64,000 nt of DNA from an uncultured delta proteobacterium (GTDB lineage: Bacteria > Desulfobacterota > Binatia > Bin18). Within the stretch, counting starts at the first letter, position 1. Each line of letters starts with the position of its first letter. The position numbers and the translations under genes were made by a program. The notes beneath the pieces were generated by a model. That model was not told where the DNA came from. It was given only the letters and a program-made list of their open reading frames with translations, and searched no databases. Shown here piece after piece: positions 30,652 through 64,000 of this stretch. The DNA is taken from positions 1 to 64,000 of the forward strand of contig CAVTCR010000045.1 of the NCBI GenBank assembly GCA_963733195.1, in the 5' to 3' direction.

Positions 30652-31096
30652 TGTCTGTTCCTCCTCTGTGAGATTGGATTATGATGGACCGTTTCCTATC
30701 TATCCGGCATCGCTAGGTGGTGCAACCGCTACTGGGTTGTGAGAGAGTCGAACGGTTGACAACGCCCCTCGCACCGCGCCATAACCGCCCTTGATGAGTA
30801 GCAAGATCCTCTACCTCCCCCAGCGGGCTGCGACGCCAACCAGTGAACGTACGGCCAGGCCGATCGTCGGACGCGACGCGGAACTGGCGGCGTTGCACCA
30901 GCGGCTGGAGACGCGTTGCAAGGTCAAGGAGGTTCGGCAGGTCCTGTTCATTGCGGGCGAGCCAGGCATTGGCAAGACGGCGCTGGTCGATACATTCCTG
31001 GCGCAGATTCGTGAACGAGACGGACATCCGTATTACTTCCGGGCAGTGCGTGGAGCAATACGGTCGCAGGCGAAGCTTATCTGCCGCTGCTCGAAG

Positions 31097-34000
31097 CAGC
31101 AATCCCCGGTTGCGCCTAACCCGGATTATTCATGAACAAAGAGGAGAAGAGAGAAAGCTGTACAGAACAGTCCGATAGGAATCATGAATATGACGAACAG
31201 GGATGAGTAAAGAAAAAAGGGCGAGAATCGCAAGCAACGACAGGCCAACAGAGGGGCTTGAGGGCAAGGGGAGACGGACGCCTCCCTACTGACGGAAGGA
31301 GCGACAGCGAAAAGAGAGAGAACTTTCTGTGAGGAGACTACGATTACGCTGAGGACAGGACGGGCGGCACCGCGAGGATCGTGGCCAGTTGCCGGAACAC
31401 TCGCGCCAACGGAAACGCGAACGGAAGCCGCACGAGCACCCGGCGCGTCGACTGCGAGACAATGGCCGCTACTTTCAAGAGCTGCAGCCGCAAGAGTATC
31501 GAACTGCGCCCGGCCCAGCTGCGGCGCCAACGGTGCGACCTGGGTGCGCAGGGCATGGAAGAGGACATAAGCCGCCGCGTGTTCGAGCAAGCGAAAGAAG
31601 TTGGCGGCAAACGTCGAACAGGAGAGGCGATCGGCCTGCAGGGCATTCTTGAAGTCTTTAATAAAATTCTCACACTGGCCTCGCTCACAATACGCGTGAT
31701 AGAGCAGCGCGGGAGCGAACTCCGGGAGCGAGGTCACCACAAACCGGGGATTGGCGCCGTGCTCACTGACTTCCGCTTTCATGACCACGTGTCGGGCCTG
31801 CGGCCAGCTCTCCGCCGCATAGGCAAAGGCGTCAAAGTGTTGCACGGTCTGCTTCGTGGCTTGAAAGCGCCGACGCGCTTCGCTTAAGGCTGTCGCGCCG
31901 GCGCGGAGCAGGACGGCATTCTGGGCGAGCCCAACGACGTAAGCGATGCCGCCCACTTCCCGATTCAGTTCCTCCAGCATCCGCAACACGCGTGGGACGG
32001 CAAATGCGGAATCGCCCCGCACCACAATCTGCACGTGAGGAAAGCGCTGCTTGAGGCGCTGAATAATCCGTCGTAGGACTCCCATCGCGCCGCGCGCCGC
32101 ATGGGCATTACCCGGGCGCGGCACCGCACTCACTAACTGCCCCCGCTCCCCATCAAAGATCACCAAGGGATGATACATGTGTTGATCGTAGTACCCGTGG
32201 AAGAAGGAGAGTTGCTGTTGCCCGTGGGTGGGATCGTCCGTGGAGTCAATATCCAAGATGATGACTTCCGGCGCTGTAGTGAAGGACCTCACATACTGTT
32301 CCTCAATCTCACAGACAGAGCGCGCGCAGCCTTCCGACGTCCACCGCGTTCTCCAACCGCGAGAGCGTCGGTTGCGAGGAGAGGCCTGCCGCGTGCGGGG
32401 GCCGATCGCACGCACTCTTGAGGACCGGGTCCTGCCGCAGCCGATCGGCGTAATTGCCGTCCGCATACCCCAAGGCAATCTGATAGAGCCGCTGCCGCAG
32501 TTGCTCGCGGCGATCATGTTGCACTTTGCGCGGATCGCGCTCATCCGGGAGCAACGCCGCCAATCGTTCGCTCAATCCCAGACGATCATCCATCTGGCGC
32601 AGCAACAGCGCTCCGCCATCACTGGAGATGTGGGGCGCGTCAAAAGCGACGGTGATCGGGTGGGTCGGATGGAAGTTCAGCGCCAGTTGTGCAATACACT
32701 CTGCCATCGGCTCGCTCCTTTGCGACTGGTCCGAAAGTCTTGACAGCTTCAGACCTTAGCAGAGGCGAGCCGTTTCGTCCCGCATTCTCATGAATAATCC
32801 GGGTTAAAGGCCCGTAAACAAGGGGTGGGAGCGCGGGAGTTCTTGCGCTTTGCTACCCTGTAGAGAGGCGTCCCCTCAAGAGTCTTACCCTCCAAGCAAT
32901 TGTTGACCTCCTCGCTACTACGTTTGGCGCGGGGGCTGAGGCCCGCGCAGTCGAGCAGCTCCGCTATCCCCTGCAGGACACCCTGAGGAGTGGCTTTGCG
33001 ATGATGGTTTTTCAGCATGCCAGTCTCTTACAGTTTCAGCGGGCGAGGGAACAGAAGCGCGGGCGGTGTAATTTGCAGACGATCTTCAGCGTGCACGAGG
33101 TGCCTGCGGATACGCAGATGCGCGAGATTCTTGACGGCGTGGAGGTCGAGTGGGTCCGCCCGCTGCTCCCGCAGCTCTGGGAGAAAGTGCGCCGAGCGGG
33201 CTGGGGCGGGCGCTTCACCACCACACTGCCGAGTGGGCAACACCAGGGGACGTACTCTACGGGGGCGCTCGATGGCAGTGAGTATTTCCGCTCGACCCAG
33301 ATTCAGTGTCCCCATTGTCTGCGCCAGGCGGATAGCCAAGGGCGGGGCCACTATTGGCACGAGATCGTGGGGGCGACGGTGGTGCGCGCCGGGGCGCATC
33401 AGGTCCTCCCGCTGGATGTAGAAGAAGTGCGCAAGGCTACGGCGGAGAGTGCCCCGCAAGATTGGGAACTGACGGCGGGCAAGCGGCTGATTGCGCGTCT
33501 GCGGCGCGAGCACCCGCAGATGGCGCTCAGTGTGATGGGGATGACCTCTACTCGCGGGTGCCCTTTATCGAACAACTGCAGCTGTTACGTCAGCCCTACG
33601 TGGTAGTGGCCAAACCGAGCTCGCATCCGACCTTGCGGGCGGCAGTAGCCGCCGCGGAAGGGACGGAGCAGAGTCAGACCGGGCAGTGGACCGCCGGCAG
33701 TGGTGCCCGGCAGAAGACCTCTACCTCTCGGCTCGGACGGCACGTGCCCTTGGCGCTGGAGAGCACGGGACGCGTCACCTATGTCGCGGTCTGGGAACAT
33801 AACGCGGGCGGCAAGCTACTCGGGGATGATGATTGGGTGACGGATCTCGACGTCGACTCCGTCAATGTGGCCGTGGTGGTCCAGATCGGACGCACGCGCT
33901 GGAAGATTGAGAATGAGCAGTTCAACGTCCACAAAAATCACGGCTATGAGCTCTCCCCCAATTACGGCCATGGGCAACAGCCCTTGTCGAGGGTGTTCTA

Positions 34001-34422
34001 GCTCTTGAATCTCTTGGCCTACGTGGCCCATGGGGTCTTGGCCTTGGGCGATCGGCTCTATCAGCGCTGCCGCGCCCAGGAATCGCGGCGGGAATTATGG
34101 AACGCGTTGCGGACGCTGGGGAACGCGCTGCTGGTGGAGAGTTGGTTCCGCCTGTTACTCGTCTCTCTGGACAACGCGGATGCGCGTCCCTAGCGGTACG
34201 CCGTCGTCGGCTATCCCCCGCAGTATTTCTGAGCCTCTCCCCGCTCCGCAAGCCGATGCGCGGACGTGTGTCTCTTGCGAGGCAACAGTCCGTGCGTTAG
34301 GTCTCCTTCGGCACTTCCCACCGCCCGCTCCAGCGAAACCGACCTGGGTTTCCTGCTCCGCTCGCTCGCTGGCGCCCTTGCTCGTCCTTCCTCCTCCTTT
34401 TCCCCCTCACCCAGAATTGCTG
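31097..34422 (+). mobile_element. ISNCY-like IS (degenerate transposase about 32900-34193) containing an IS1380
   Basis: Ends CAGCAATCCCCGGTTG / CACCCAGAATTGCTG; perfect 9-bp TSD TGCTCGAAG (31088-31096, 34423-34431); ALDGSEYF, GRTRWKIENEQFNVHKNHGY. Confidence 0.85.
31120..32803 (-). mobile_element. IS1380 family IS (frameshifted transposase 31344-32707)
   Basis: 16-bp IRs CCCGGATTATTCATGA / TCATGAATAATCCGGG; ISSDGGALLL, SQPTLSRLEN, LDIDSTDDPTHGQQQ, RGDSAF, YCERGQCENFIK. Confidence 0.9.
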
Positions 34423-35505
34423 TGCTCGAAGCCACCACCGGACTCTGTCGTGGACCGGGTAGTGAGCGACGCATCGCGTCACTCAAGCGCTACGCACCAA
34501 GCTGGTTGCACAATTGCCAGGGCTCTTGGAGCCGCACGAGTTCGACCTGTTGCAGCAACGTGTGCGAGGGACGAGCCAGGAGCGGATGTTGCGCGAGATG
34601 GTCGAAGCGGCGGAACTGTTTCACCGTCAGCGTGGGCTGGTCGTGGTGCTCGAAGATTTGCACTGGAGCGATGTCTCGACACTGGACTGGGTGACCTATA
34701 TGGCGCGGAGACGCGAGCCGGCCAAGCTGCTGATCATCGGACGTACCGTCCTGCCGACATGCTAGCCAGTAATCATCCGCTCCGAGGGATCGTGCAGGAG
34801 TTACAAGCGCGGCGACAATGTGAAGAACTGCGGGTGATGCCTTTGGAGAAAGCGGCGATCGGGGAGTATCTGCATAGTCGGTTTGGTGAGCTCGCGTTAT
34901 CAGAGGAACTAATAGCGACGCTGGCTCGCCGGACGGACGGCAATCCTCTCTTTTTTAGTCAACACGGTCAATGATCTCGTACGCCAAGGGATACTGGTCA
35001 CAGACGGAGGACAGTGGATGTTCCACGAAGAAAAGATCAAAGAATTCGGTGAGAGTGTCCCCGACAGCTTGCGACAGTTGATCGAGCGGCAGCTAGAGCG
35101 GTTACCGGAGACGGAGCAGGAGCTATTAGAAGTGGCCAGTGTGGCAGAAGCTAAGTTTGTCGTAGCGGAGGTTGCGGCGGGAAGTAGGGCTGAGAGTGAA
35201 CAAATCGAGGCGCAGTGTGAGAGGTTAGCACGGAGGGGACATTTTTTGCGGGCAGAGGGTGTCACCGAGTGGCCGGATGGGACCCTGAGTGGGCGTAAGT
35301 TTTCGCATGCGGTGTACCATGAGGTGATCTATGGGCGCGTGGCAGAGGCGCATCGGGTGCAGTTGCATCGATGGATTGCCGAGACGCATCCTCGCCTTGG
35401 ACAGTATCGGGCCCGCACGATTAAGACCGGTAATATCTGTGTCTATACTCCCGACCCGCATCAGCCAGTGACGTGGGAGTTCTAATCGCGGCGTGGGCCT
35501 ATGAA

Positions 35506-36166
35506 TTATCGTCGGCGAAAAGACAGAAACCCCTCCGAGAGATCGGCGTCGACTGCCCACTCGACTTGTCGCACCTGAGCCTGCTCTCGGGCTTCAGGCG
35601 TCGCCCACTGTTCCCCAATCACGACAGCAATCGCGTGTGCGCCGCTCCGCTTGAGCGTGTTCGCGCGCCGCTCTGCACGACTCACGTCTTGACGGTCTAC
35701 CTGCAAAGACACTTCAATGATCGCGACCTGCTCCCCCTTCCACCAGATGAGATCGGCAAGAAAAGGATCATCCTCCGCGTCGGGCATCTCCACAGCCAAT
35801 AGTGAGCCTAGCTGCGTGGTTAACCGTTGTTGGATGTCTGGCTGATCTAGAGAGCCTCCCTGGCCGCCATTGAACAGGGCGGGCGCTCGTCTCTCAGTGT
35901 ATCACGCTCATACCGTTCGCCATCTCGTCGTCCCGCTTCACCGCGCTGCCACGCTAGCAGACCAGCGTCAGCTCGTCCTCCGTACGTGCCTGTGCTGTAG
36001 CAAGCTGTTGGAACCCTTGCTCGGTGTCGCGTCGGAGGTGGGCAACTTGCTCGGGCAGAGCGAGCAGTTCCTCCGTCAGTACCAAACGGCGTAATTCCGC
36101 CCGCCATTCAGGGCGTTCCTCCACCAGGCGTACAAGGTCATGAAACTCTGCCACTGTAAACGACAT
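35506..36166 (-). pseudogene. coiled-coil plus PD-(D/E)XK-like protein (DUF3782-like), disrupted
   Basis: MSFTVAEFHDLVRLVEERPEWRAELRRLVLTEELLALP..ADLIW..IIEVSLQVDRQDVSRAERRA; stops in the middle part. Confidence 0.6.
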
Positions 36167-36373
36167 GTCCAAAGCCTCTCTGTATTTCCTTATACGCATT
36201 CTGCCATGATTGGCCAAGTCGGTATTTCTTCCTGGATGATGCTGCGCTTCATCCAGGCGACGTTCTTTCGCCCCCTTTTCCGTTTTCCCTTTCGCTTTTT
36301 CCCCTTCAGCCTTCGGCCTATAGCCTTCAGCTTTTTCTTTCCCCCTTTTCGCCTGAACCCCCGTTCCCTTTTC

Positions 36374-36430
36374 GTTCCATCCACCTGGAACAACCCCGTC
36401 TGCCACTATTTGTCACGCCTTACTCTACAG
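36374..36430 (+). promoter_or_regulatory. shared operator/promoter motif, copy A
   Basis: GTTCCA-tccacc-TGGAAC..TTTGTCACGCCTT-ACTCTACAG, then AAAGGAGG RBS. Confidence 0.65.
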
Positions 36431-36829
36431 AAGATTTGCCACAGCAGAGAAAGGAGGCGACAGCCATGCAAAGATAACACTGGATAACGCCGGGAATCGG
36501 AGAAACGGGGACTGAAGAATTGGAAGAGAAACAACTGACAACCTCAGAGCTGAAAGCTGATCGCTGACAGCTCAAAGAAAGGAACACGATCATGACACAG
36601 ACACATATACGCCCGAGGGCGCATGGCGCCGATTGGCGCGCGCCCGAGCACATGTCCGAGAAGCGCAGCACGCCTGTGCCGGTCAGCGGCTGGACGGCGC
36701 AGTCGCCAGCCGCTGGCGGCCGCAAGCGCGGAGTCTGAGGGGCCGTGATCGCCGATATTAGGCGCGAGTGAGCCTGGTCCGGGGTGGTCTGGGGGCAATG
36801 GGGGCAGGCGAGCGAGCCACCCGACACGT

Positions 36830-37045
36830 TTTCCCATAGCCTGAGCGCTCTAGCGCTCGCACTCACAACCTTTACGGCGAGCGCAGCTAGTGCCGCGGTC
36901 TTGAAAGCAGATTTTAACAATGACGGCTATGAGGACCTGGCGGTTGGCAGCCCCTACGAAGATGTCGGGTCCATTCAGGGATGCCGGAGCAATCTCGGTG
37001 CTCTATGGCTCAGCCGGCAGCCTGCCTGCGTTTCCGAGTCAGCAG
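36830..37045 (+). pseudogene. FG-GAP repeat secreted protein fragment
   Basis: Signal-like LALALTTFTASAASA, then ADFNNDGYEDLAVGSPYED. Confidence 0.7.
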
Positions 37046-37062
37046 TGGTATCAAAGAGAATA

Positions 37063-37271
37063 TTAGTGGAGATTGCCAAAGACGTCGGTAATCCTTTTCC
37101 CTTTGCCGGCGACAGCACGTAAAGTTGCCATCACTTCTTCCCCAAACAGCACCTGATCCAACGCCTTGTCCACTGCGTCGGCTGCCGTCCGAGCATCCAG
37201 TAACCGTTGGACGCGCTGGAGTTTGCTCTCGTCAATCTAACCCTTGTCCGTTTGCTCATGGGTAAGGCCAT
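37063..37271 (-). pseudogene. VapB-like antitoxin (frameshift) with possible VapC N-terminal stub
   Basis: MSKRT..IDESKLQRVQRLLDARTAADAVDKALDQVL..GNLH*; overlapping frame reads ILFDT (PIN start); AAGGAG RBS. Confidence 0.5.
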
Positions 37272-37472
37272 GTCGTTCTCCTTCATGCATGTATGACTTA
37301 TAGCAAGCAGTTTTGTATTCGACCAGAAGGAATCCTGCCACTCTCGCGATGTAGTTTCCTAAGTTCCATTACACTCAGACCACATTCCTTCGCCTGCTCA
37401 CCCGTTCGCCCCTTCGCCCGTTCGTTCTTTTCCCCTTTCCCCCTTTCGCCTTTTACCCCCGTTCCCCTTTTC

Positions 37473-37518
37473 GTTCCATCCACCTGGAACGGCCCCGTTC
37501 CATCATTTGTCACGCCTT
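37473..37518 (+). promoter_or_regulatory. shared operator/promoter motif, copy B
   Basis: GTTCCA-tccacc-TGGAAC-ggcccc-GTTCCA-tca-TTTGTCACGCCTT upstream of PP2C. Confidence 0.7.
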
Positions 37519-37539
37519 TCTTATCAGGAGGAAAACATT

Positions 37540-38307
37540 ATGACGATCACCAGCGCAGTCCGAACCGATCGAGGCAAAGTGCGATCCCGCAACGAAGATG
37601 CCTTCGGAATCTTTCCTGAGTTACAGACCTACGTCGTTGCTGATGGCATGGGTGGACAGCAGGGTGGCGTTGTCGCTAGCACGCTCACTGTGGAGACGAT
37701 CTGTCGCGCACTGCAAGACGTGGATGAGCACCCCCACCGGACAAACGGGGTGAAGATGCCACCCAGCCTGTCGTTGCTCAACGCCGTACAGCAGGCGCAT
37801 GCGCAGGTGTTGGAGTTGAGTCGGTGTCAATTATCATTGCTCGGCATGGGCACTACCGTTGCAGCCGTATCCTTCAGCTCGTCCCAGCAGGCCGCCGTGA
37901 TCTGTCATGTCGGCGACACGCGGGTGTATCGGCTCCGCGATACCGTCCTGGAGCAATTGACTGAAGATCACACAATCGGCCAGCAGCTTGTGCGGGCGGG
38001 GTTGATGAGTCCGCAAAAATTGACGACCAGCCGGTATCGTCACCTCCTGACGCAAGCGGTCGGTGTCAGTGCGGAGATTCATCCCGCCGTGCGGCTTGAG
38101 ACCCCGCAGACTGGGGACCTGTTTCTGATTTGTAGTGATGGCGTGTATCGAGAAATCCCGGACGAAGAAATAAGAGACACCGTGCAAGAGGCAGGAACTG
38201 ATCTCCAGCAGGCCTGTGACGCGCTGGTGGCGTTAGCCAACGCCCACGGCGGGCGAGATGATAGTACGATCGTGGCCCTTCGATACGGTTCGGACACAGT
38301 TTTGTAG
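37540..38307 (+). CDS. PP2C/PPM family Ser/Thr phosphatase
   Basis: RSRNEDA, VADGMGG, GMGTT, HVGDTRVY, LTEDH, CSDG, GGRDDST. Confidence 0.93.
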   Translation: MTITSAVRTDRGKVRSRNEDAFGIFPELQTYVVADGMGGQQGGVVASTLTVETICRALQDVDEHPHRTNGVKMPPSLSLLNAVQQAHAQVLELSRCQLSLLGMGTTVAAVSFSSSQQAAVICHVGDTRVYRLRDTVLEQLTEDHTIGQQLVRAGLMSPQKLTTSRYRHLLTQAVGVSAEIHPAVRLETPQTGDLFLICSDGVYREIPDEEIRDTVQEAGTDLQQACDALVALANAHGGRDDSTIVALRYGSDTVL

Positions 38308-52693: not shown

Positions 52694-52694
52694 T

Positions 52695-55135: not shown

Positions 55136-56861
55136 ATGCATGATCTGTTAATCCGTGGCGGAACGATCGTTGATGGGACTGGAAGCCGGCGTTTTCCGGA
55201 GATGTCGCCATTCGTGATGGACGTATCGCAGCGGTCGGCAAAAACCTGGGCAGTGCTACGCGTACGGTCAATGCTGATGGCCTGCTGGTCACGCCAGCCT
55301 GGGTCGATGTGCATACCCACTATGACGCCCAAGTGGCGTGGGACGAACAGCTCACCCCGTCTCTCTGGCATGGCGTTGCCACAGTCGTGATGGGCAACTG
55401 CGGAGTGGGCTTTGCGCCTGCGGCCCCTGATCGCCACGAGTGGCTGATTGGCCTCATGGAAGGCGTTGAGGATATTCCTGGACCATCATTGGCCGCGGGT
55501 CTGCCGTGGGGCTGGCAGAGCTTTCCCGAGTATTATGACGTTCTGGAGAAGATGCCACGGACGTTAGACGTAGCTGGGATGATCACTCATGGTGCGGTTC
55601 GTGCGTATGTGATGGGCGAACGCGGAGCCAAGAACCAACCGGCCACCGCCGACGATATTGCCCAGATGGCCGCGTTGGTCAAAGAAGCTGTGCTGGCTGG
55701 AGCGTTAGGGTTCTCCAGTTCTCGTACCCCGGTGCACATCGCTAAGGACGGGGTACCAGTACCAGGTACTTTTGCCACAGAAGACGAACTGCTCGGCATT
55801 GTGAAGGGCATGCGCGAAACCGGACGTGGCATCTTTGAGGTGGTGCCGGCAGGCGTTGTCGGTGAAGCGCCGAATGCCCTCAAGCCAGAAGTCGAAATGA
55901 TGATTCGCATCGCGCGGGCTTCGGGCTGTCCACTGACCTTTTTACTCGGCCAGGCAAACCGTGAGCCCCACGCATGGCGGGAAGTGCTGCAGATGTGCTC
56001 GACCGCTGTAAACGCAGGCGTGCCAATCACCCCAATGGTCTTTGCTCGCCCTGTGACCATACTCTTAAGTTGGCAGAGCGAAAATCCGTTCAAGTCGCTG
56101 CCGAGTTTCAAGCCGTTGCGCAATCTGCCGTTAGCTGAGAAAGATCGCAGCACTGACGGAACCCTGAAATCCGCCGAGCACTACTGGCTGAGCGTGAAGC
56201 CAGAGCTTCACGAGCGGCGCTGATGTACCACGACGCTTTCTGGGAAAAGACCTATCGCATGGGCCAGCCGTTGAACTATCTTCCCAGCCCTGACCAATCG
56301 ATCGCTGCGATTGCCCAGCGTGAAGGACGCAACGTCCTCGATGTCGTCTATGACGCACTGCTTGAGCAGGACGGGCGGGCTTTCTTGATGAACACTGTTG
56401 CTGGCTATGCTGAAGGCAACGCCAAAGCCCTACGCGAGATGATTACCCATCCGATTACGGCGTTGGGTGGCAGCGATGCTGGTGCGCATGTCAATCAGAT
56501 CATGGATGCCAGTATGCCGACCTATATGTTGGCGCATTGGGTACGTGACCTGCCTGCAGATCATCCTGACCATCTGCCGCTGGAGATGGTGGTCAAGAAG
56601 CTGACGCATGACGGCGCGCGGCTGTTTGGTCTCAAAGATCGCGGCACCCTAGAGCCAGGGGCCAAGGCCGATGTCAACTTGATTGACTACAAGAACTTGC
56701 ACGTCAATCACCCAGAAGTGGTCCACGACCTACCTGCGGGCATGCCGCGCCTGATGCAAACCGCAAACGGTTATGTGGCAACCTACGTGAGTGGTCAAGC
56801 AGTACAAGAGAATGGCCACGACACTGGCGCACGACCGGGGAAAATCGTGCGCAGTGCGTAG
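55136..56861 (+). CDS. N-acyl-D-amino-acid deacylase family amidohydrolase (2 frameshifts)
   Basis: IRGGTIVDGTG, DVHTHYD, MGNCGVGFAP, SDAGAH, DRGTLEPGAKADVN. Confidence 0.9.
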
Positions 56862-56929: not shown

Positions 56930-57023
56930 TCTCCCCTCCGGGAGAAGCCTGTCCTGAGCTTGTCGAAGGGGCCAGGATGAGGGGAAGAAAGAGTGGTATT
57001 CCTTATTCGATCCCCTCACCCTA
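56930..57023. repeat. nested REP-like palindromes
   Basis: CTCCCCTCCGGGAGA[GCCTGTCCTGAGCTTGTCGAAGG]..TGAGGGG ... CCCCTCACCCTA. Confidence 0.55.
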
Positions 57024-57346: not shown

Positions 57347-57933
57347 TCAAAACAACGGCCCTGAGGTTTCCACCTTGATCTCGCCGCGATTGATCGCCGG
57401 GAGCAGCAGCTCCATAAGTTCTTCGTGTTGCTCTCTCGTGAGTTGTCCCATAGACACGCGCAGGGTGTGCGCGTCTTCGTCGGTCCAACGTTTGGCTGCG
57501 AGGGCGGTGCGTACGGCTGAGACGCACTTTGATACGCGGCTTTGTTCTCCGGCGTGTCGCGCAGTTGCGCGTTGGCGATCTCTTGTGCGCGTGCCTGTTG
57601 GGCCTCGGGACTCCACTCCGCCAGCGCCTGCTGGAGTTCTTGACGAAGGATTTTGGTTAGCACTGTTGAGTCACCGCGTCACCAGACGGCACAATCGCGT
57701 TAGGTCGGTTCAGGACGAACATCTGGTGAGTTGTTTCGTTCTAACGACTGCGTTAAGGCAGTCACTGCCTGTTCGAGTTGCGCGAACTGCTGGTCATAGC
57801 GCGGCTCATGGTCTGCTGTGGTCGTTTGCACTGTCGAGGCGTGTGGCATCCACATCATCGTTCCCGCCCCCAGGGCGATACCAACACTGAACGCCACTGC
57901 CGTCATCCATCTGCCATTATTCTGTAGTGTCAT
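57347..57933 (-). CDS. membrane-anchored coiled-coil hypothetical protein (frameshifted), partner of the tandem paralogs
   Basis: TM (AVAFSVGIALG), coiled coil, C-terminal AKRWTDEDA..LLPAINRGEIKVETSGPLF*; three collinear frames. Confidence 0.6.
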
Positions 57934-58033
57934 AACTCTGTTTCCTTTCTTGAATGCTGGTGGCAATACTACACCGTCCACCACGCGGGAACGACCAAAC
58001 GCGCCCACGTGGTGCGGCAACTGTCTGTCTCAC

Positions 58034-58436
58034 TTATCGAAGGAGGTCCGATGCGTTGTTGACGATGATGTAGGTCGCAGGTGGTGGTACCGGCCGGCAT
58101 AGAGAAATAAATGTAGGAACTGGTTGGTCATGGTCTGCGACCGCAATCAATTTTGGATCGTAACGTCCAGCAGTTAAGAGACAGCACCATTTTTATCGCA
58201 GCGAAACAGCTCATATACGAGACGAGTAAGCAGCCTTGACTGACTGCACAGCCGATGTATTGCCTGTTGTCACTACTGAAACGTGCTGACTGCACAGCGC
58301 CCTGCAGCGCTAGAGGCTGCCTGCCACGATAGACCTCATAGTTGGAGGCGTAGCCCGCCCAGGTGGGACCGGTGTGAGCCAAGAGTGTCAAGCCCAGAAC
58401 CGCTCCGCCGATGATGTTTTTCACATGTGCTTTCAT
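58034..58436 (-). CDS. small secreted Cys-containing protein, paralog 3
   Basis: MKAHVKNIIGGAVLGLTLLAHTGPTWAG..SARFSSDNRQYIGC..SCFA; ends LLR*; frameshifts. Confidence 0.7.
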
Positions 58437-58512
58437 GATGAGATTCTCCTTTCTGCGTTGTTGAAGCGGGAGCATCCCAACGCTCCCGCGTGGTGCGTTA
58501 CCTCTGCCGTGC

Positions 58513-58922
58513 TTATCTGAGGTGGTACGATGCGTTATCGACGTCGATGATAGTTGCAGGTGGAGCGTACCGGGCGGCATCTGGAAAAAAATGTATGAAC
58601 AGCCGGTTATGGCATGGGCTACTGCAATCAACTGTGGATCGGCACGTCTCACAGGTAAATCGTGGCGCCATTTTTATCCCTGCGGCGGCTACAGAACATA
58701 CGAGACGGCAGAAGACTCCGAACTACGGAACAGCCGATATATTGCAGAGTTGTCGGTACTGTACCGCGCTGCCGGAAGAGCGCCCGTTGCATGAGAGCTG
58801 TCTGCTACGAAGATCTCGATTGGCGGGAGTCACTAGAACCCCGCCCAGGTCGGAACCGTGGTGGCCAAGAGTGCCAGGCCAAGAGCTGCTCCGCCGATGA
58901 TGTTTTTCAAATGCGCTTTCAT
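58513..58922 (-). CDS. small secreted Cys-containing protein, paralog 2
   Basis: MKAHLKNIIGGAALGLAL..PTWAG..ARYSTD..QYIGC; ends LR*; frameshifts. Confidence 0.7.
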
Positions 58923-59000
58923 GATTCGTTCTCCTTTCTCAGTTGTTGAAGCGGGAAGCATGCCAAACTCCCCATGTTGTGCGTCAACCATCTGCCGTGC

Positions 59001-59405
59001 TTATCTGAGGACGATCGATGAGTTGTCGAGTGGAGGGAATTGCAGGCAGAGGGATAATCGGACGCGCGCAGTGAAATAAATGTATGAATGGTCGGTCATG
59101 GTACGGGCTACGGCCAATCAATTTTGGATCTGTAACTTAAACAGCATGCGCAGAGCGCCATATATATCCTGGGCGAAACAGCTCACATACAAGCGATCAG
59201 AAGCAGTCTTATAGACTGTGACAACTGATGTATTGCAGTTGGTCGATACTGTACCGCGCTGCATGCAGAGCGCCCGAATGCCGATAAGTTGTCCGATCTT
59301 GACCTCTGAGAGGAACGCTAAACCCGCCCAGGTCGGAGCAGAGTTCGCCAACAGTGCCAGGCCAAGAGCCGCTCCGCCGATGATTTTTTTCAGATACGTT
59401 TTCAT
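59001..59405 (-). CDS. small secreted Cys-containing protein, paralog 1
   Basis: MKTYLKKIIGGAALGLALLANSAPTWAG..YVSCFAQD; ends LR*; frameshifts. Confidence 0.7.
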
Positions 59406-59526
59406 GATTCGTTTCTCCTTTCTTTTTTAGTTGTCCGTTATCAGTTCTGTGTTATTGCTAATGGGGATTCACTCATTCCGCGTTCAAATCATTGGTCATT
59501 GCTCTCCTTTCGCTTGCGCATTTTGT

Positions 59527-59589
59527 TGTGACCTCTGTAGAGAAAGGCGTAACAAAGCGATGAACACCTGTGTTCATTGGGGAGTGAAC
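59527..59589 (-). promoter_or_regulatory. shared operator/promoter motif, copy C
   Basis: Minus strand GTTCA-ctccccaa-TGAAC-acaggt-GTTCA-tcgc-TTTGTTACGCCTTTCTCTACAGAGGTCACA. Confidence 0.7.
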
Positions 59590-59802
59590 ACTTGGAGGGA
59601 GGGGGTTTAATCTTCTGGGAGGGGGAAAGTGAACGGACGTGGCGTTAGAACTGCCAGGTCAGCAGCGTATGTGGGTCAGAGACGTAGCGGTAAACGGTCA
59701 GTCTTGATGATGCATTGGGGGTCGCGGGTAGGGGCGACGCTTGTCCCTGTCGTGATCAGGCGTCCGCATGACCCACCTAGTGCTAATGTCATGTGGTTTG
59801 GT

Positions 59803-62265
59803 CTAGTTGCCACTGTTGCTCGTCGGCACCGTGACGGTGGCCGTCACTGCATCTTTCGTGATTGCCAGAGGCATCAGTCGCACGGTAGGTGATGGTATAC
59901 ACCCGACCAGTGCTTTGACCGCCAGTGCCACGTTCAGACCGTAAGGAAAACGCACGATCATCAGTGCCGATGGTTGCCCCTTGAATGTCTGGTCCCTTGT
60001 CTCCATTCCCTAAGAACCCGGTTTCCGGTTCGTTACTGGTCACGGACACCAAGGTAATCCTAGGATTGGGATCACAATTATCCGGTCACCGTAATGGTCG
60101 CCGTAATGTCTTGGAACTTATGATTCGGTGGCCACAGGGTCGTGGGCGATACGGTCACTGTCAGTGTAGGTTGAACCTCATAAAGAATCCGCAACGGTGC
60201 TGAACCGGTAGCTGTCAGAAAGTTACTCACGAAGTCCTTAAAAGCCAGGGATGCGCTTGCGCTAGTAAAATCGCCTGGACAAGCATTGAGCGGCACGGTG
60301 AAATTGCTCGTCCGAGTCGCACTTCCTCCGACCACAATGGCACCCATCTCCTCCACCTGCGTTCCCCCGTCTGGTCGCGTATCAGTAAGCACGGCTTCCA
60401 AGGCTGGCCCGCGGCCCGAGTTGCTGATCTGAGTGGTGTAGGTCAATACATCCGCAGGACGAGCCGTTGCCGGACCAGTTTTGTCTACCACGACCCCAGG
60501 TGCTGCCATCGCAGCCATAAATTCCCGCGCCTCTCGGATCGTGTCAGGGTCGGCTTCGTCCTCAGCATAAACTCCCGCACCATCGGCATAGTTGTCCGCC
60601 ATTGTTCGGAAGTTATACTTCAGATTCTGCCAATCATCGAAACCAGTTAGTAGAGTGAACTCTCCATCACCGTTAATGTCAGCTTGGACGTTGGTGGTAT
60701 TGGGCGGTGGACAGGTCGTGCCTTCGAGCACGTCGTCAGCATCCCACTTCCTCGCCCCAAAGCCGAGCTGTCCCCGGATCGATGCCGATACATTCATCCA
60801 GCTGATGTTTCAAGCAGTTGAGTTTTAGCTGGCGGGAGCGGCGGGGGAAGGGCAATGCGCGAGTAATCACACCCGCCGGGGAAAAACCCATTAGGGCTAG
60901 GGGTAACAGTGCATTATTGGAATGCATAATTCATCACACTGAGATAGTTTGGCTTATCGTTGGTTTGCGCCTGATCTCCGCCATGATGCGAGACCGAGCG
61001 TATGCCCAAGTTCGTGCATGAACGTGCAAGCTTGTTGCTCACGACTCCCAACCGAGAAACCATTCGCATCGGGAATCCAACAAGGGAAACCAACGACATT
61101 AACGCCGCCGAGCGTAACCATGAAGTCGTTGCCATGAACTTCCCCTTGTCCACTCGTGCAGTCGTTGGTTGGTCGGCGGAAGTTCGTCTGGTGCCCAAAG
61201 ATCGCGTAGCGGAATATCGCTGTACGCACGGGGTTAAAGTTCGCCTGCTTCAGATCGTAGAAATTCGTTGCCGGGTCCCCAAGCGCGCCATTGAAATCGA
61301 TGATCGTATTTCCTGCCTCAGGAATCTGACTCCCGCCGCCACCAAGGTTTCCGTACGTTCCAATTACTCCGCCCGTCCCAGGGACAGGAACGATAGTCCC
61401 GGCTCCGAACAGCGAACCAGTATCGACATGCAATTGCACTCCGGTAGTACCATCGGGGTTGGCAACAGGGGCATTCGGCGAAGGAGCGAACAACATCATC
61501 TATGGCATCTTGCCGAGGGCAATGCGAATGGGTTGCGGCAACCAAACAATCCACCTCAACGAAGATATCTTTACGCTGCGGATTGGCACCCAATGCAGGC
61601 AGGTTGACATCAATCGAGCCGTCACCATTCGCATCAAAGCCGCTCAGCTCCCAACCGTCCAGTAACCCGTCGCCATCCTCATCACCAAGAGAGATGTCAA
61701 AACAGGTCTTCACTGCATTGCCACCAGTCCCGGTAACGCAATTTTCCGGCCATTCAACATCCCCCATCCACCGTCCGGTAGTCAAATCCACTTCGAGGTC
61801 TACCACCTTTTTCGGGCCAGGATTAATATCGGCGAGATCACTCTCACTCAGGGAATCGTAATCAATAATCTCAATACGTATAGCGACAGTTCCCTGGTTC
61901 GGTGAGATGTTCCGCACCAACACCCAGGACGGGTGAGGAATCAGCGGCCCAGATGGAAGGATAAACCCGCCATCAAAATCGAACCGATGATTAAACGTAC
62001 TCAGTTCCACTCCATCGATGGAGACGTGAGCATAGAAGATCCCCGAGGGAAGAGATGGGGAAGCCATCGAAATCGCCCCCGAACTGCTCAAGTTCAGTGA
62101 TCGTCACGGTGACCGGCTGGGTTTGCGCATGACTGCCAGTGGGGAACAGCGTTAAACGAGGCAAAGCCGGCAAGTAGAGTAAGTACAACACGACGAAAAT
62201 GCTGATAAGTAAACATGGTAGTCCTTCCTTTTCTTCCTTGATTCTTTGTGGTGATTGTTGGTCAT
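59803..62265 (-). CDS. large secreted zinc metalloprotease-like protein (multiple frameshifts)
   Basis: DGDGLLDGWE, GANPQRKDIFVEVD, FMHELGHTLGL, KPNYLSVMNY Met-turn, DUF11-like VDKTGP..LTYT, LWPPNHKF, GRVYTITYRATDASGN. Confidence 0.75.
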
Positions 62266-62289
62266 GAAACCAGTTCGTTAGGTGTTCCG

Positions 62290-62478
62290 TTACGCGGCCT
62301 GTTGATACTCAGTGGTTTGGGGCTTCGTCGAAGAGCGAGTCTGAGGCTGCGTCGAGTTTCCGCGTAGCGCGGCCAGGGCAATCCCCCAGACGCTGCCTAG
62401 GAGTAGGGTCCACAGCCCGATCCCTAACCAAAATCCGACCTCCGGAAACGAAACCGTTGCCGTTGCGATGCTCCACAT
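62290..62478 (-). CDS. small membrane protein
   Basis: AAAGGAG RBS; one TM; first gene after motif copy D. Confidence 0.55.
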   Translation of the reverse strand: MWSIATATVSFPEVGFWLGIGLWTLLLGSVWGIALAALRGNSTQPQTRSSTKPQTTEYQQAA

Positions 62479-62530
62479 AAGCGATCTCCTTTCTTCGTGA
62501 ATTAGTTTGTCTATTCACTGCAGTTTGTGT

Positions 62531-62594
62531 TGTGACCTCTGTAGAGGAAGGCGTAACAAAGCGATGAACGATCGGTGTTCATCGGTGAGTGAAC
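62531..62594 (-). promoter_or_regulatory. shared operator/promoter motif, copy D
   Basis: Minus strand GTTCA-ctcaccga-TGAAC-accgatc-GTTCA-tcgc-TTTGTTACGCCTTCCTCTACAGAGGTCACA. Confidence 0.7.
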
Positions 62595-62814
62595 ACAGCG
62601 AAACGGGAAAAGGGGGAAATGGGGAAATGGAGAAAAGGGAAGAAAAACGAATGGGCGGAAGGGAGAAACGGAGAAGGGCAGCGCGGTAGTGTGCGAAGGC
62701 GCTCAGGATACGGCTAACGAGGCGGGGGCCGATCCATAAGCCGACGCTCAAGCGCCGGGCGGCGACTGGGCCAATCTTATGTGGTTCGATTGAGCCGCCT
62801 CTCGGTTGTAGCGT

Positions 62815-63147
62815 TCAACCATGAGTGGCTTCTGCGAGCACCTCGGTCGCCCATTGATTAAGGCTCTTGCCTGCGGCTTGGGCGGCGACCAAAGCCGCAC
62901 CGTGCACCTCCGGTGGTACGCGCAACATGAGCTTGCCAGACGCAGGTTTCTCCGGGCGCACACCTTGTTCCTTACAGTCGCGCAAGAACTCTTCGATAGC
63001 CGTCACGAGCGCAGCACGCAACTCTTTCACCGTTTCACCATGAAAGCTGATCATGGTGCGCAAGCCAAGAACGCGACCGACAAAGATGTTGTCGCGCTCG
63101 TCGAATTCGATGCGAGCGGTGTACCCCTTATGAGTCATGGTGTTCAT
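62815..63147 (-). CDS. hicB: HicB antitoxin
   Basis: MTHKGYTARIEFD..ISFHGETVKEL..SGKLMLRVPPEVH..GKSLNQW. Confidence 0.92.
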   Translation of the reverse strand: MNTMTHKGYTARIEFDERDNIFVGRVLGLRTMISFHGETVKELRAALVTAIEEFLRDCKEQGVRPEKPASGKLMLRVPPEVHGAALVAAQAAGKSLNQWATEVLAEATHG

Positions 63148-63215
63148 GGTTTGACCCCTATCCGTTCCAGCAACTCGCGGGCCTCTTCGACCTGATAGCG
63201 CTCTCGATGGTAGGT
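63144..63215 (-). pseudogene. hicA: HicA toxin C-terminal remnant
   Basis: RYQVEEARELLERIGVKP* with ATGA overlap into hicB. Confidence 0.65.
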
Positions 63216-63356
63216 GAGGCGTCCGGTGGGCCGTGCGCGCAGCCTGCATACACAACACAAATTTTACACCTTGGATATTTGCAGTCAGGGTTCAAAAATA
63301 CAAGGGAAGGAAAAATAACAACTCGTTCGTACAGACTGCGGGGCAACTTTCTCTTC

Positions 63357-64000
63357 TTAAAACTCCCAGCTCAGCTGTGCATGGGGCTCAGGAACGTAGG
63401 AACAAAATGTGCCGGTCTTGATGGTTTGGGTGAAATACTGCCCGAGGGCGGGATGCACCTCCGCGACTCGGGTAATTGCTGTACGAATGGCACGAGTGAC
63501 GTTCACACGTGCACGCTCCTGCGGTGAGGCGGATTTGCGGGCTCGGCCTCTGAGTCCTACCGCGCCCGCTAACTCTTGCGTCACGAACTCAAGTTCGTCT
63601 TGCAGCTTTTCTACCCGACCGACATCGTTAAACTCGCGCGCTTCTTCGAGTTCGGCCTGTAGCTCGGTCAGGCGCTGGCGGTACGCCGCTTTGGCTTGCG
63701 GATCGAGCACTTCACCAGCATCGGTAAAGCCAGCGATATGTACAGTTGCCGTTGCTGGGTCTCGGGTCTCATCAACAAGACTGATCCCCGTCAGGGAACT
63801 TGTGTTGAGGTCAGGCGTATCGGCAGCGAGAGCAAGGGCGGAAAACTCTTGGTCAGGGTGTTGGAGCAAATGGGCGAGGTACTGCATGCCGCGCGTATCT
63901 TTGATGCGGGCGACTGTTCCGTGAAACACCAGCGTCCAATACTCGCCTTCGGAACGGAAGGTGTTGGGAGCTAGGGGTTGGGGGTTGGGTGCTAGGGAGG
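63357..64000 (-). CDS. C-terminal putative winged-helix domain of an AAA/STAND-type regulator (partial, runs off window)
   Basis: FRSEGEYWTLVF..RGMQYLAHLL.HP..ERARVNVTRAIR..TIKTGTFCSYVP..WEF*; same terminus as the 35485 ATPase relic. Confidence 0.75.
   Translation of the reverse strand, partial: SLAPNPQPLAPNTFRSEGEYWTLVFHGTVARIKDTRGMQYLAHLLQHPDQEFSALALAADTPDLNTSSLTGISLVDETRDPATATVHIAGFTDAGEVLDPQAKAAYRQRLTELQAELEEAREFNDVGRVEKLQDELEFVTQELAGAVGLRGRARKSASPQERARVNVTRAIRTAITRVAEVHPALGQYFTQTIKTGTFCSYVPEPHAQLSWEF

What the first reader, a model, noticed from the sequence alone, without database searches (positions are those of the whole stretch)
30791..64000. Candidate regulatory system: paralogous STAND-like regulators, each with its own variant of a shared operator/promoter driving secreted or signalling cargo
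Seen: four copies of one architecture, an 18-bp palindrome, a 6-7 nt spacer, a third half-site, then TTTGTYACGCCTT (usually followed by CTCTACAG) and a strong RBS. Copies A (36374) and B (37473) use GTTCCA-N6-TGGAAC; the third half-site is degenerate in A. Copies C (59589) and D (62594) use GTTCA-N8-TGAAC. A and B lie downstream of, and co-directional with, the AAA_16 gene ending IKTGNICVYTPDP..WEF. C and D lie likewise after the paralog ending IKTGTFCSYVPEP..WEF. Downstream genes are an FG-GAP relic, PP2C, a metalloprotease and the small secreted paralogs. Inference: the C-terminal domain is an OmpR-like winged helix with a helical insert, and paralogs have diverged in half-site specificity while sharing a non-canonical core promoter box. 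I do not know this motif from any described regulon.
Basis: partly seen in the sequence, partly recalled or inferred. Interest (0 to 1): 0.78.

Follow-up and report, generated by a model that had tools for sequence, protein, structure and literature searches.

The report
Shared promoter module beside uncharacterised regulators
Four copies of a GTTC-repeat operator joined to an invariant 13-base box sit in front of secreted-protein and signalling genes, next to regulators carrying an unannotated, probably DNA-binding end domain, and the same arrangement recurs in related uncultured bacteria.

Summary
Four composite sites lie at the stated coordinates (4 found, 0.00 expected). A profile of the module finds 19 sites in the window and in 9 loci from six related assemblies, and nothing else. 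All 19 share GTTC-N5-TTTGTYACGCCTT-nCT-nnn-CAGA. The upstream repeats come in three types.

A gene with the same C-terminal domain (CTD) lies in 5 of 9 motif loci and in 0 of 15 chance loci. Operator type follows regulator clade.

The CTD has no Pfam or NCBIfam model, yet 12,476 cluster representatives carry it. It ends AAA_16-TPR, cyclase, kinase, GAF and receiver proteins. Its model (pLDDT 84) and a profile comparison point weakly but consistently to an OmpR-like winged helix split by a coiled-coil insert.

Corrections:
- The first regulator is a dead relic, with IS insertions, frame changes and a deletion of about 710 residues.
- Much of the cargo is broken.
- The box matches no sigma-70 promoter, and its role as a core promoter is inferred.

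Best reading: signal-controlled activators binding GTTC repeats at about -35 of an unusual promoter. This is a new variant of a known kind.

The parts
36374..36430 (+). Site A (type III). Palindrome GTTCCA-N6-TGGAAC, degenerate third half-site TCTGCC, box TTTGTCACGCCTT at 36409-36421, then ACTCTACAG.
   Evidence: nhmmer 29.3 bits.
37473..37527 (+). Site B (type III). The same palindrome, GTTCCA third half-site, box at 37506-37518, then TCTTATCAG overlapping AGGAGG.
   Evidence: nhmmer 31.4 bits.
59535..59589 (-). Site C (type II). GTTCA-N8-TGAAC, ACAGGT, GTTCA, TCGC, box at 59556-59544, then TCTCTACAG.
   Evidence: nhmmer 35.2 bits.
62539..62594 (-). Site D (type II). GTTCA-N8-TGAAC, ACCGATC, GTTCA, TCGC, box at 62560-62548, then CCTCTACAG.
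   Evidence: nhmmer 32.6 bits. Matches L008 site 3039, which precedes the same 62-aa gene.
30791..31135 (+). 5' piece of the dead regulator R1 (start of the AAA_16 NTPase). It is cut off from the rest by IS insertions.
   Evidence: tblastn: residues 88-152 of the 1234-aa L021 regulator match 30863-31064.
31126..32544 (-). Intact IS transposase (DDE_Tnp_1_4, 472 aa) inserted in R1.
   Evidence: Pfam E 1.5e-88.
32818..34001 (+). Second transposase-like remnant in two frames, also inside R1. The transposase call rests on reading the translation only.
   Evidence: Translation; no Pfam hit.
34416..35485 (+). Rest of the R1 relic. NTPase and arm region with frame changes near 34741 and 34952, joined directly to the last 37 residues or so of the end domain. 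About 710 residues are deleted.
   Evidence: tblastn with 7 full-length relatives; alignment.
63357..63998 (-). Regulator R2: the last 213 residues, which are the whole end domain (CTD). The gene runs off the window.
62815..63258 (-). HicB-family antitoxin gene lying between R2 and site D.
   Evidence: Pfam PF05534, E 2.2e-18.
36226..36373 (+). Pyrimidine-rich tract upstream of A. Similar tracts lie at 37351-37472 before B and at 62725-62595 (- strand) before D.
   Evidence: C+T 0.81-0.85 against a background of 0.50, sd 0.07.
36466..36477 (+). Three-codon mini-ORF behind the first ribosome-binding site of A, 57 nt from the box start.
36784..37122 (+). FG-GAP repeat fragment; relic cargo of A.
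   Evidence: Pfam PF01839, E 2.6e-08.
37540..38307 (+). PP2C-type phosphatase, 255 aa, open frame; cargo of B.
   Evidence: Pfam PF13672, E 5.6e-15.
62290..62478 (-). 62-aa hydrophobic peptide gene (MWSIATATV...); first cargo of D.
   Evidence: A homologue follows L008 site 3039.
60078..62103 (-). Metalloprotease-like gene in three frames. HELGH lies at 61016-61002, and a DUF11-type repeat lies in the last piece.
   Evidence: TIGR01451 E 9.9e-07 and TIGR03296 E 0.075.
59473..59499 (-). Eight-codon mini-ORF behind the first ribosome-binding site of C, 57 nt from the box start.
58050..59405 (-). Three tandem small secreted-protein paralogues starting at 59405, 58922 and 58436. Each has in-frame stops relative to a 139-aa homologue.

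Best explanation
The four sites are regulated promoters of one lineage-specific family. Each combines an array of GTTC half-sites with an invariant core, GTTC-N5-TTTGTYACGCCTT-nCT-nnn-CAGA, and a leader carrying a strong ribosome-binding site.

The half-sites are the operator of regulators whose output is a roughly 200-residue end domain (CTD). The CTD is most likely an OmpR/PhoB-like winged helix-turn-helix whose recognition helix and wing are separated from the N-terminal half by a disordered linker and a coiled-coil hairpin.

Input modules vary: AAA_16-TPR STAND NTPases, cyclase-homology, kinase, GAF and receiver domains. On a signal, the regulator binds the half-site array. If transcription starts at the conserved CA (box position +19/+20), the half-site nearest the box sits at about -29 to -26 and the proximal palindrome is centred near -32. 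From there the regulator would recruit or adapt RNA polymerase to a core that lacks sigma-70 hexamers, much as SARP/AfsR does.

Regulator clades have diverged in half-site flank and spacing (types I, II, III) while the core stayed fixed. Cargo is mostly secreted or envelope proteins and signalling enzymes.

Within this window the system is decaying. Regulator R1 is dead and several cargo genes are broken.

Shown here: the motif, its recurrence, its adjacency to CTD genes, and the domain combinations. Inferred: DNA binding by the CTD, activation rather than repression, the transcription start, and which sigma factor is used.
For: - Composite motif: 4 found, 0.00 expected.
- One genome scan with box+nCTnnnCAG returned 24 loci. 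Nine carry a GTTC half-site 5 nt upstream of the box and a ribosome-binding site downstream.
- Within those 9 loci plus the window there are 19 sites. A profile of positions -12..+24 recovers exactly these at 29-41 bits, and the next hit scores 5.6 bits.
- Positions GTTC (-9..-6), box 0-12, C14, T15 and C19-A20-G21-A22 are kept in 17-19 of 19 sites.
- CTD genes occur in 5 of 9 motif loci and 0 of 15 non-motif loci. The Fisher point probability is 0.003 for this table, and 0.0003 if only the 6 loci with at least 1 kb of upstream flank are counted.
- In L002, L017, L018 and L021 the site is 165-475 bp behind the regulator's stop codon on the same strand.
- Type II sites go with R2 and the L008 regulator, which are 76% identical. 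Type I sites go with four regulators that are 47-52% identical to R2.
- The exact type I palindrome GAACAATTGTTC occurs only next to boxes (11 of 12 type I sites), plus three distal copies 54-62 bp upstream.
- CTD family size: 12,476 representatives at E<=1e-3.
- Of 40 relatives scanned, 15 have AAA_16, 15 have TPR only, 2 have only a cyclase domain and 8 have nothing; among the 15 AAA_16 proteins one also carries a kinase domain and one a receiver.
- 22 of the 120 listed short relatives are receiver + CTD, which puts the CTD in the output slot of response regulators. GAF + CTD and hydrolase + CTD forms also occur.
- AlphaFold model with alignment: pLDDT 84.2, pTM 0.64, with topology beta1-3, alpha, beta, alpha, linker, two long helices, helix, helix, strand.
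- 12 of the top 20 Foldseek PDB hits are OmpR-family DNA-binding domains.
- The insert-deleted profile aligns colinearly over 89 columns with 8 E. coli OmpR-family domains, pairwise E 0.0056. The receiver-domain control gives 0.87.
- No sigma-70-like hexamer pair lies at the sites.
- SARP/AfsR precedent for a box centred at -29.5: PMC10936776, passages read.
Against: - No fold or sequence match to a DNA-binding domain is significant. The best Foldseek E is 0.46 and hhalign probability is 2.8%. Pfam Trans_reg_C is not hit in any of 40 members even at E<=10.
- Some relatives carry a bona fide Trans_reg_C or GerE domain as well as the CTD. This is unexpected if the CTD is itself the DNA-binding domain.
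- Four motif loci show no CTD gene. Three of them have under 1 kb of upstream flank, but L020 has three sites in 7.8 kb and none.
- The 15 control loci come from other taxa, so the contrast overstates the association.
- Loci L017, L018 and L021-7353 are orthologous (same ICMT-like cargo) and are not independent. A and B are duplicates.
- In L008 the regulator is divergent from the sites, not upstream of them.
- No transcription start data exist. A 13-base invariant block is not how known -35/-10 promoters look.
- In the window R1 is dead, yet sites A and B are intact.
Confidence: 0.58

Rival explanations
1. The sites and the proteins are as in the main explanation, but the regulator represses or acts like MerR. 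The true promoter overlaps the proximal palindrome. For example, a -10-like CATCAT lies just before the box in type I sites. The palindrome would then sit in or on the promoter, and the box would be early transcribed sequence.
For: - The operator is a palindrome immediately next to the conserved core.
- Type I sites read GTTC-CATCA-T, a 4-of-6 match to TATAAT by inspection.
- Sites A and B stay intact although R1 is dead. That is easier to accept if the promoter works without the regulator.
Against: - The -10-like hexamer is absent from type II sites (ATCGCT) and no -35 partner is conserved.
- Distal extra half-sites and arrays are more typical of cooperative activators such as MalT or OmpR. 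That comparison is recalled, not tested here.
Confidence: 0.15
2. The core is recognised by a dedicated alternative (ECF-type) sigma factor. GAAC would serve as the -35 and GTY of the box as the -10. The CTD proteins would control that sigma factor or cooperate with it.
For: - In L008 an ECF sigma gene (8503-9372) lies directly upstream of the cyclase-CTD gene on the same strand.
- GGAAC/TGAAC ... GTT resembles ECF promoters (recalled, not tested).
Against: - The GAAC-to-GTY spacing is 15 nt in type I, 17-18 nt in type II, and 17 nt (B) or 19 nt (A) in type III (read). That is too variable for one sigma factor.
- No ECF gene is seen next to the regulators in L017, L018 or L021.
- This reading leaves the invariant ACGCCTT-nCT-CAGA unexplained.
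Confidence: 0.1
3. The box acts in RNA. CGCCUUUCU in the 5' leader pairs with the GAAAGGAGG ribosome-binding site and masks it.
For: - In most single-sequence folds the box pairs with the first ribosome-binding site.
- The one site with box T12 changed to C has a G opposite it.
- A GAAAGGAGG element at about +40..+50 is kept even where no start codon follows, in L010 and L020-1341.
Against: - The alignment fold gives only 4 pairs at -0.76 kcal/mol, with 1 pair showing a double change.
- Single-sequence z-scores run from -1.85 to +0.31.
- TTTGTYA is invariant without any partner.
- In B the ribosome-binding site abuts the box, so no hairpin can form.
- No Rfam family matches.
Confidence: 0.07
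4. The palindromes are something generic: LexA SOS boxes (GAAC-N4-GTTC), intrinsic terminators of the upstream gene, or recombination or mobile-element ends.
For: - Type I sites fit GAAC-N4-GTTC. That phrase appears in two SOS-response papers; I saw only the search listing.
- The consensus scan flags the proximal palindrome plus TTTGT as terminator-like at B and D.
Against: - The window's own sites have N6-N10 spacing.
- Cargo is secreted and envelope proteins, not repair genes.
- The stems are 4-7 bp with only three T after them.
- The palindrome never occurs without the box.
- No recombinase or terminal repeats flank the units.
- Anti-phage STAND models do not match.
Confidence: 0.04

Closest known systems
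MalT / LAL (large ATP-binding LuxR-type) STAND transcription activators
   Same: Domain order: NTPase (AAA_16), then TPR/MalT-like sensor arm, then a C-terminal output domain. Several binding sites lie upstream of the target promoter.
   Different: The output is not a GerE/LuxR helix-turn-helix; no PF00196 is found in the CTD. It is an unannotated domain of about 200 residues. The target motif and core promoter are unlike MalT boxes (recalled).
SARP regulators with NOD and TPR (AfsR)
   Same: An OmpR-type DNA-binding fold joined to a STAND NTPase and TPR. The box lies over the -35 and spacer region of a promoter with poor hexamers (PMC10936776, passages read). AfsR appears among the fold hits at rank 38. 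Some relatives have the CTD in front of AAA_16, as in AfsR (P0044 and P0065).
   Different: AfsR has its DNA-binding domain plus BTAD at the N-terminus and binds two 11-bp direct repeats. Here the domain is usually C-terminal, is split by a coiled-coil insert, has no BTAD, and the sites are inverted repeats.
OmpR/PhoB-family response regulators
   Same: Many relatives are receiver + CTD proteins of 340-370 residues (22 of 120 listed). The predicted secondary-structure order and a colinear profile alignment match the OmpR effector domain.
   Different: Pfam Trans_reg_C is not matched. About 90 residues are inserted between helix 2 and the recognition helix. The operators are palindromic.
LexA SOS box of Gram-positive type (GAAC-N4-GTTC)
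   Same: The type I proximal palindrome GAACAATTGTTC fits the pattern.
   Different: The window's sites have other spacings. Every palindrome is fused to the 13-base box. The cargo is not DNA repair.

Membership tests
OmpR/PhoB winged helix (Pfam Trans_reg_C, PF00486) | Sequence match to the family model | tested here: not met
   No PF00486 hit for the window CTD, nor for any of the 40 family members at E<=10. The profile search of PDB sequences gave only coiled-coil noise.
OmpR/PhoB winged helix (Pfam Trans_reg_C, PF00486) | Fold: N-terminal beta sheet, three helices with the third as recognition helix, C-terminal beta hairpin (wing) | tested here: inconclusive
   The model has the right order of elements, with an insert. 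12 of the top 20 Foldseek hits are OmpR-family domains, but at E 0.46-1.3 and TM 0.14-0.20 normalised to the query. hhalign of the insert-deleted profile gives pairwise E 0.0056 and probability 2.8%, against 0.87 for the control.
OmpR/PhoB winged helix (Pfam Trans_reg_C, PF00486) | Binds DNA repeats | not testable with these tools
   Only genomic adjacency of CTD genes and GTTC repeats is available.
STAND NTPase regulators (MalT/LAL type) | AAA_16/NOD NTPase followed by TPR-type sensor repeats | tested here: inconclusive
   R1 keeps NTPase pieces but has lost the TPR. R2 runs off the window, so only its CTD is visible. Relatives at 84-86% identity and the L018 and L021 regulators have AAA_16, with TPR in the relatives and L021. 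A 76% relative and L008 are cyclase + CTD instead.
STAND NTPase regulators (MalT/LAL type) | C-terminal LuxR/GerE helix-turn-helix | tested here: not met
   No PF00196 in the CTD or in the 40 relatives scanned.
SARP (AfsR-like) | N-terminal OmpR-type domain plus BTAD; 11-bp direct repeats | tested here: not met
   No BTAD or Trans_reg_C in the regulators next to the sites. The repeats are inverted. A minority of distant relatives do carry PF00486 as well.
Sigma-70 type promoter | TTGACA-like and TATAAT-like hexamers 16-18 nt apart | tested here: not met
   The consensus scan finds none at A, B, C or D.
Sigma-54 promoter | GG at -24 and GC at -12, ten bases apart | tested here: not met
   By inspection, TGTYACG-N4-nCT has T in place of the second G and CT in place of GC. 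The consensus itself is recalled.
Known RNA families (Rfam 15) | Match at gathering score | tested here: not met
   0 matches in the whole window.
Anti-phage STAND systems (Avs-like, PADLOC) | Match to a defence-system model | tested here: not met
   Only a generic TPR model, and for L008 generic cyclase (PycC) models, were hit. No Avs or NACHT defence model matched, in 6 proteins.

The most novel reading that the evidence does not exclude
The roughly 120-bp unit is a portable, self-contained expression cassette. It comprises a pyrimidine tract, GTTC array, invariant 13-base core, leader, ribosome-binding site and start codon. It uses an initiation mode not yet described: a split winged-helix output domain that stands in for -35 recognition on a core lacking sigma-70 hexamers.

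The cassette has been copied in front of unrelated secreted-protein genes. That would explain why 9 of 19 sites keep a 2-8-codon start-stop mini-ORF 54-61 nt from the box, followed by the cargo gene's own ribosome-binding site. It would also explain why near-identical leaders precede unrelated genes within one genome.

If so, the CTD is a large, unrecognised family of transcription output domains, with 12,476 representatives, and its DNA code could be read from adjacency.
Probability: 0.25. Interest if true: 0.8.

Novelty: new variant of a known kind. Interest (0 to 1): 0.62.

Why it matters
An output domain present in more than twelve thousand protein clusters has no family model and no assigned function. 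It is attached to STAND NTPases, cyclases, kinases, GAF and receiver domains.

This window and its relatives give the first concrete, testable target for it: GTTC repeats fused to an invariant core. They also provide three natural specificity variants for swap experiments.

The work also yields a first candidate regulated promoter for a poorly known uncultured lineage, whose records are labelled Deltaproteobacteria or Candidatus Binatia. This promoter does not look like a sigma-70 promoter.

If the mechanism resembles SARP or PafBC 'sigma adaptation', it would extend that principle beyond actinobacteria.

Tried and rejected
- Single-sequence structure prediction was too poor to use (pLDDT 46.5).
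- The homodimer prediction of the CTD gave no verdict (score 0.00, mark 0.42). It says nothing either way.
- The ESM Atlas could not be used.
- Pfam and NCBIfam on the CTD gave nothing. The PDB sequence-profile search gave coiled-coil noise only.
- Rfam gave nothing.
- The RNA hairpin idea is weak.
- The terminator reading rests on two consensus flags at background frequency.
- Sigma-54, ECF spacing, integron attC-like cores and a LexA box were considered by inspection and rejected. The reasons are spacing, missing invariant dinucleotides, and cargo.
- I looked for extra, weaker sites, for example autoregulatory ones in front of regulators, with an nhmmer profile. None scored above 6 bits.
- No ECF sigma gene was found next to the type I regulators.
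- PADLOC gave no defence-system match.
- Literature searches gave nothing on this domain or motif. For all papers except PMC10936776 I saw only the listings.
- Coordinate slips and a search-term slip were corrected and resent.

Full report
**1. The observation**

A (36374-36430) and B (37473-37527) lie on the + strand. C (59589-59535) and D (62594-62539) lie on the - strand.

Each copy has the same order of parts:
- an 18-bp palindrome: GTTCCA-N6-TGGAAC in A and B, GTTCA-N8-TGAAC in C and D;
- 6-7 nt of spacer;
- a third half-site, which is degenerate in A;
- 3-4 nt;
- TTTGTYACGCCTT;
- nCT(CTA)CAG.

The composite pattern occurs 4 times against 0.00 expected, and 0 of 100 shuffles reached that. 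GTTC-N10-GAAC alone occurs 6 times against 1.27 expected, with two unrelated extras. The 13-mer with up to two mismatches is not significant on its own (6 against 2.75).

A and B also share the palindrome's inner spacer and about 16 upstream bases, so they are one duplication event. Pyrimidine-rich tracts (0.81-0.85 C+T) precede A, B and D, against a window background of 0.50, sd 0.07.

**2. The genes around it**

*Regulator R1.* The 'AAA_16 gene' in front of A and B is a wreck. I ran tblastn with seven full-length relatives.
- The start of the NTPase lies at 30863-31064.
- An intact IS follows (31126-32544, - strand, DDE_Tnp_1_4, E 1.5e-88).
- A second transposase-like remnant follows at 32818-34001. 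That call rests on reading the translation only.
- The NTPase and arm region resume at 34416-35383, with frame changes near 34741 and 34952.
- The last 37 residues or so of the end domain follow directly (35369-35479).
- About 710 residues are missing, covering the TPR region and most of the end domain.

*Regulator R2.* R2 (63998-63357, - strand) shows only its last 213 residues before the window ends.
- Its nearest long relatives are AAA_16-TPR proteins of about 1170 residues at 84-86% identity.
- A 488-residue relative at 76% identity is cyclase-homology domain plus end domain.
- The L008 protein, 75.6% identical by tblastn, has the same cyclase plus end-domain build.
- A HicB gene lies between R2 and D.

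*Cargo.*
- A: a 3-codon mini-ORF, then an FG-GAP fragment.
- B: an apparently whole PP2C phosphatase.
- D: a 62-residue hydrophobic peptide, then a metalloprotease-like gene in three frames, with HELGH and a DUF11-type repeat.
- C: an 8-codon mini-ORF, then three tandem small secreted-protein genes.

These rest. All three secreted-protein genes carry in-frame stops relative to a 139-residue homologue.

*Gene decay.* Other genes in the window are split too. The amidohydrolase at 55309-56861 and the MFS transporter at 9980-11213 are examples. Some breaks could therefore be assembly errors. The IS insertions and the 2-kb deletion in R1 cannot be.

**3. Related sequences**

Fifteen are chance hits in unrelated taxa. 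Nine carry a GTTC half-site five bases before the box, usually a pyrimidine tract upstream, and a ribosome-binding site downstream. Those nine are L002, L007, L008, L010, L016, L017, L018, L020 and L021.

The nine loci come from six assemblies, labelled Deltaproteobacteria bacterium, Candidatus Binatia bacterium or (implausibly) Enterobacteriaceae. The window's IspG is 89-90% identical to proteins named Deltaproteobacteria or Candidatus Binatia.

A relaxed search inside these loci raised the count to 19 sites including the window's four, with up to three per locus, always on the coding strand of the next gene. An nhmmer profile of positions -12..+24 recovers exactly these 19 at 29-41 bits. Nothing else scores above 5.6 bits in about 128 kb.

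Kept in 17-19 of the 19 sites:
- GTTC at -9..-6;
- the box at 0-12;
- C14 and T15;
- C19-A20-G21-A22.

The upstream repeats fall into three types:

| Type | Repeat | Sites |
|---|---|---|
| I | GTGAACAATTGTTCC | 12 sites |
| II | GTGTTCAC-N6-ATGAACAC-N4/5-GTGTTCAT | window C and D; L008, three sites |
| III | GTTCCA-N6-TGGAAC-N6-GTTCCA | window A and B |

The exact type I palindrome occurs only beside boxes, apart from three extra copies 54-62 bp upstream. L008 (type II) and L016 (type I) come from one assembly, just as the window holds types II and III.

**4. Association with the regulators**

tblastn with R2's end domain finds such a gene in 5 of the 9 motif loci and in 0 of the 15 chance loci. 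The Fisher point probability is 0.003 for this table, and 0.0003 if only the six loci with at least 1 kb of upstream flank are counted.

In L002, L017, L018 and L021 the site lies 165-475 bp behind the regulator's stop codon on the same strand. In the window the distances are 924 and 797 bp. In L008 the regulator lies on the other strand, behind a DUF2703 gene and an ECF sigma gene, divergent from the first site.

Type II sites go with R2 and the L008 protein. Type I sites go with four AAA_16/TPR proteins that are 47-52% identical to R2.

Weaknesses in this evidence:
- The control loci come from other taxa.
- L017, L018 and L021-7353 are orthologous, sharing an ICMT/PEMT-like membrane protein as cargo.
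- L020 has three sites and no such gene in 7.8 kb.

**5. The end domain (CTD)**

It has no Pfam or NCBIfam model. Even so, 12,476 cluster representatives match at E<=1e-3, and 2,214 match at 1e-30.

It usually ends the protein. Of 40 relatives scanned, 15 have AAA_16, 15 have TPR only, 2 have only a cyclase domain and 8 have nothing more; among the 15 AAA_16 proteins one also carries a kinase domain and one a receiver. Among 120 listed short relatives, 22 are receiver + CTD. Among long ones there are GAF + CTD, hydrolase + CTD and kinase-AAA_16-CTD forms. A few also carry Trans_reg_C.

This is the pattern of an output domain. Source names say only 'AAA family ATPase', 'response regulator' or 'hypothetical'.

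With a 40-row alignment the model reaches pLDDT 84.2. Its elements, in order:
- three strands, helix, strand, helix (residues 12-69);
- a disordered linker (70-99);
- a two-helix hairpin (100-147);
- the conserved GLGGRxR loop;
- a helix carrying the invariant ERxR (159-181);
- a short helix, a strand, and the invariant TG..C...W tail.

Foldseek finds nothing at E<=0.001. However, 12 of its top 20 hits are OmpR-family DNA-binding domains: NsrR, CosR, RstA, OmpR, KdpE, PhoB, GlnR and VicR. AfsR appears at rank 38.

A profile with the insert removed aligns colinearly with eight E. coli OmpR-family domains. Helix 1/2 lies on helix 1/2, the ERARVNVTRAI helix lies on the recognition helix, and IKTG.FC.Y lies on the wing. 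The pairwise E is 0.0056, against 0.87 for the receiver-domain control.

**6. How it probably works**

I take the GTTC arrays as the operator of CTD proteins and the invariant block as a core promoter.

The conserved CA at +19/+20 is a likely start, for two reasons. Conservation ends there. In B, a start there would give a short leader beginning with AGGAGG.

On that numbering the fixed GTTC sits at about -29..-26 and the proximal palindrome is centred near -32. This is close to where the AfsR box sits (-29.5) on a promoter with poor hexamers (PMC10936776, passages read). No sigma-70 hexamer pair is present. By inspection the sigma-54 dinucleotides are absent.

Which sigma factor reads TTTGTYACGCCTT is unknown. 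The single ECF gene beside the L008 regulator is a lead, not a pattern.

Rival readings:
- Repression or MerR-like action.
- An RNA-level anti-ribosome-binding-site role for the box. The alignment fold gives only 4 pairs at -0.76 kcal/mol.
- LexA boxes.
- Terminators.
- Mobile-element ends.

These are set out with their evidence in the rival explanations.

**7. Unexplained features**

- Nine of 19 sites have a 2-8-codon ORF starting 54-61 nt after the box start, followed about 75 nt later by a second ribosome-binding site and the real gene. In three other sites a long ORF starts at +55..+57.
- Within one assembly, four of five leaders are near-identical for about 50 nt and include a CAGTGCACTG palindrome. 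The cargo genes behind them are unrelated.
- Together these suggest a cassette that is copied as a unit, or a functional start-stop element.

**8. Comparison, novelty and verdict**

In function the system resembles MalT/LAL and AfsR-type STAND activators and OmpR-type response regulators. It fails the sequence definitions of LuxR/GerE, Trans_reg_C and SARP/BTAD.

My searches found no paper on the domain or the motif (listings only, except the AfsR paper).

I rate it a new variant of a known kind. It is interesting chiefly because it gives a very large orphan domain family a testable DNA target, and because it shows an unusual conserved promoter core.

Not checked:
- metagenome and viral contig collections (closed);
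- AlphaFold DB fold search (not on hand);
- ESM Atlas;
- CTD dimerisation (no verdict).

Noticed in passing
window 36466-36477 and 59499-59473; L002, L017, L018, L020, L021: Nine of 19 sites carry a 2-8-codon mini-ORF with its own strong ribosome-binding site at a fixed 54-61 nt from the box start. A second ribosome-binding site and the real gene follow about 75 nt later. The peptides are not conserved.
   Followed up: partly
L007, L010, L016, L020, L021 leaders, about +25..+34 from box start: A conserved 10-bp palindrome CAGTGCACTG sits in near-identical leaders in front of unrelated cargo genes. This includes four of five sites in one assembly.
   Followed up: no
window 36226-36373, 37351-37472, 62725-62595 (-); also 13701-13850, 26701-26800, 40350-40226 (-), 31275-31176 (-): Strongly pyrimidine-rich, G-poor tracts (at least 75% C+T over 100 nt). 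Only 0.37% of windows reach this level. Twelve of 18 motif sites have at least 64% C+T upstream. A Rho-loading or insulating role is conceivable but untested.
   Followed up: partly
L008 7992-10822: DUF2703 gene, ECF sigma factor gene and cyclase-CTD regulator lie in a row on one strand, divergent from a type II site.
   Followed up: partly
window 62815-63258 (-) and 37060-37275 (-): A HicB-family antitoxin gene lies between R2 and site D (Pfam). A short frame-broken ORF between the FG-GAP relic and site B reads like a VapB-type antitoxin. That name is recalled and no family search was run. A PIN-domain ORF lies at 19767-20363.
   Followed up: no
window 19082-19888, 22365-23228, 31126-32544, 32818-34001; 9980-11213; 55309-56861: Several IS transposase genes or remnants (IS1, DDE_Tnp_1_3, DDE_Tnp_1_4) and split genes (MFS transporter, amidohydrolase) lie alongside intact housekeeping genes (mutS, mutL, ispG, folD). 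This is either a pseudogene-rich genome or indel errors in the assembly.
   Followed up: no
L010 2413, L018 5922, L020 1270: A second exact GAACAATTGTTC palindrome lies 54-62 bp upstream of the box-proximal one. This suggests cooperative or looping binding.
   Followed up: partly
proteins P0394, P0397, P0420, P0431, P0184: Some family members combine the CTD with a recognised DNA-binding domain (Trans_reg_C or GerE). This is odd if the CTD is itself the DNA binder.
   Followed up: no
L016 1-2493: An AAA_16-TPR protein without a detectable CTD lies convergent to the cargo of a type I site, in the same assembly as L008.
   Followed up: no
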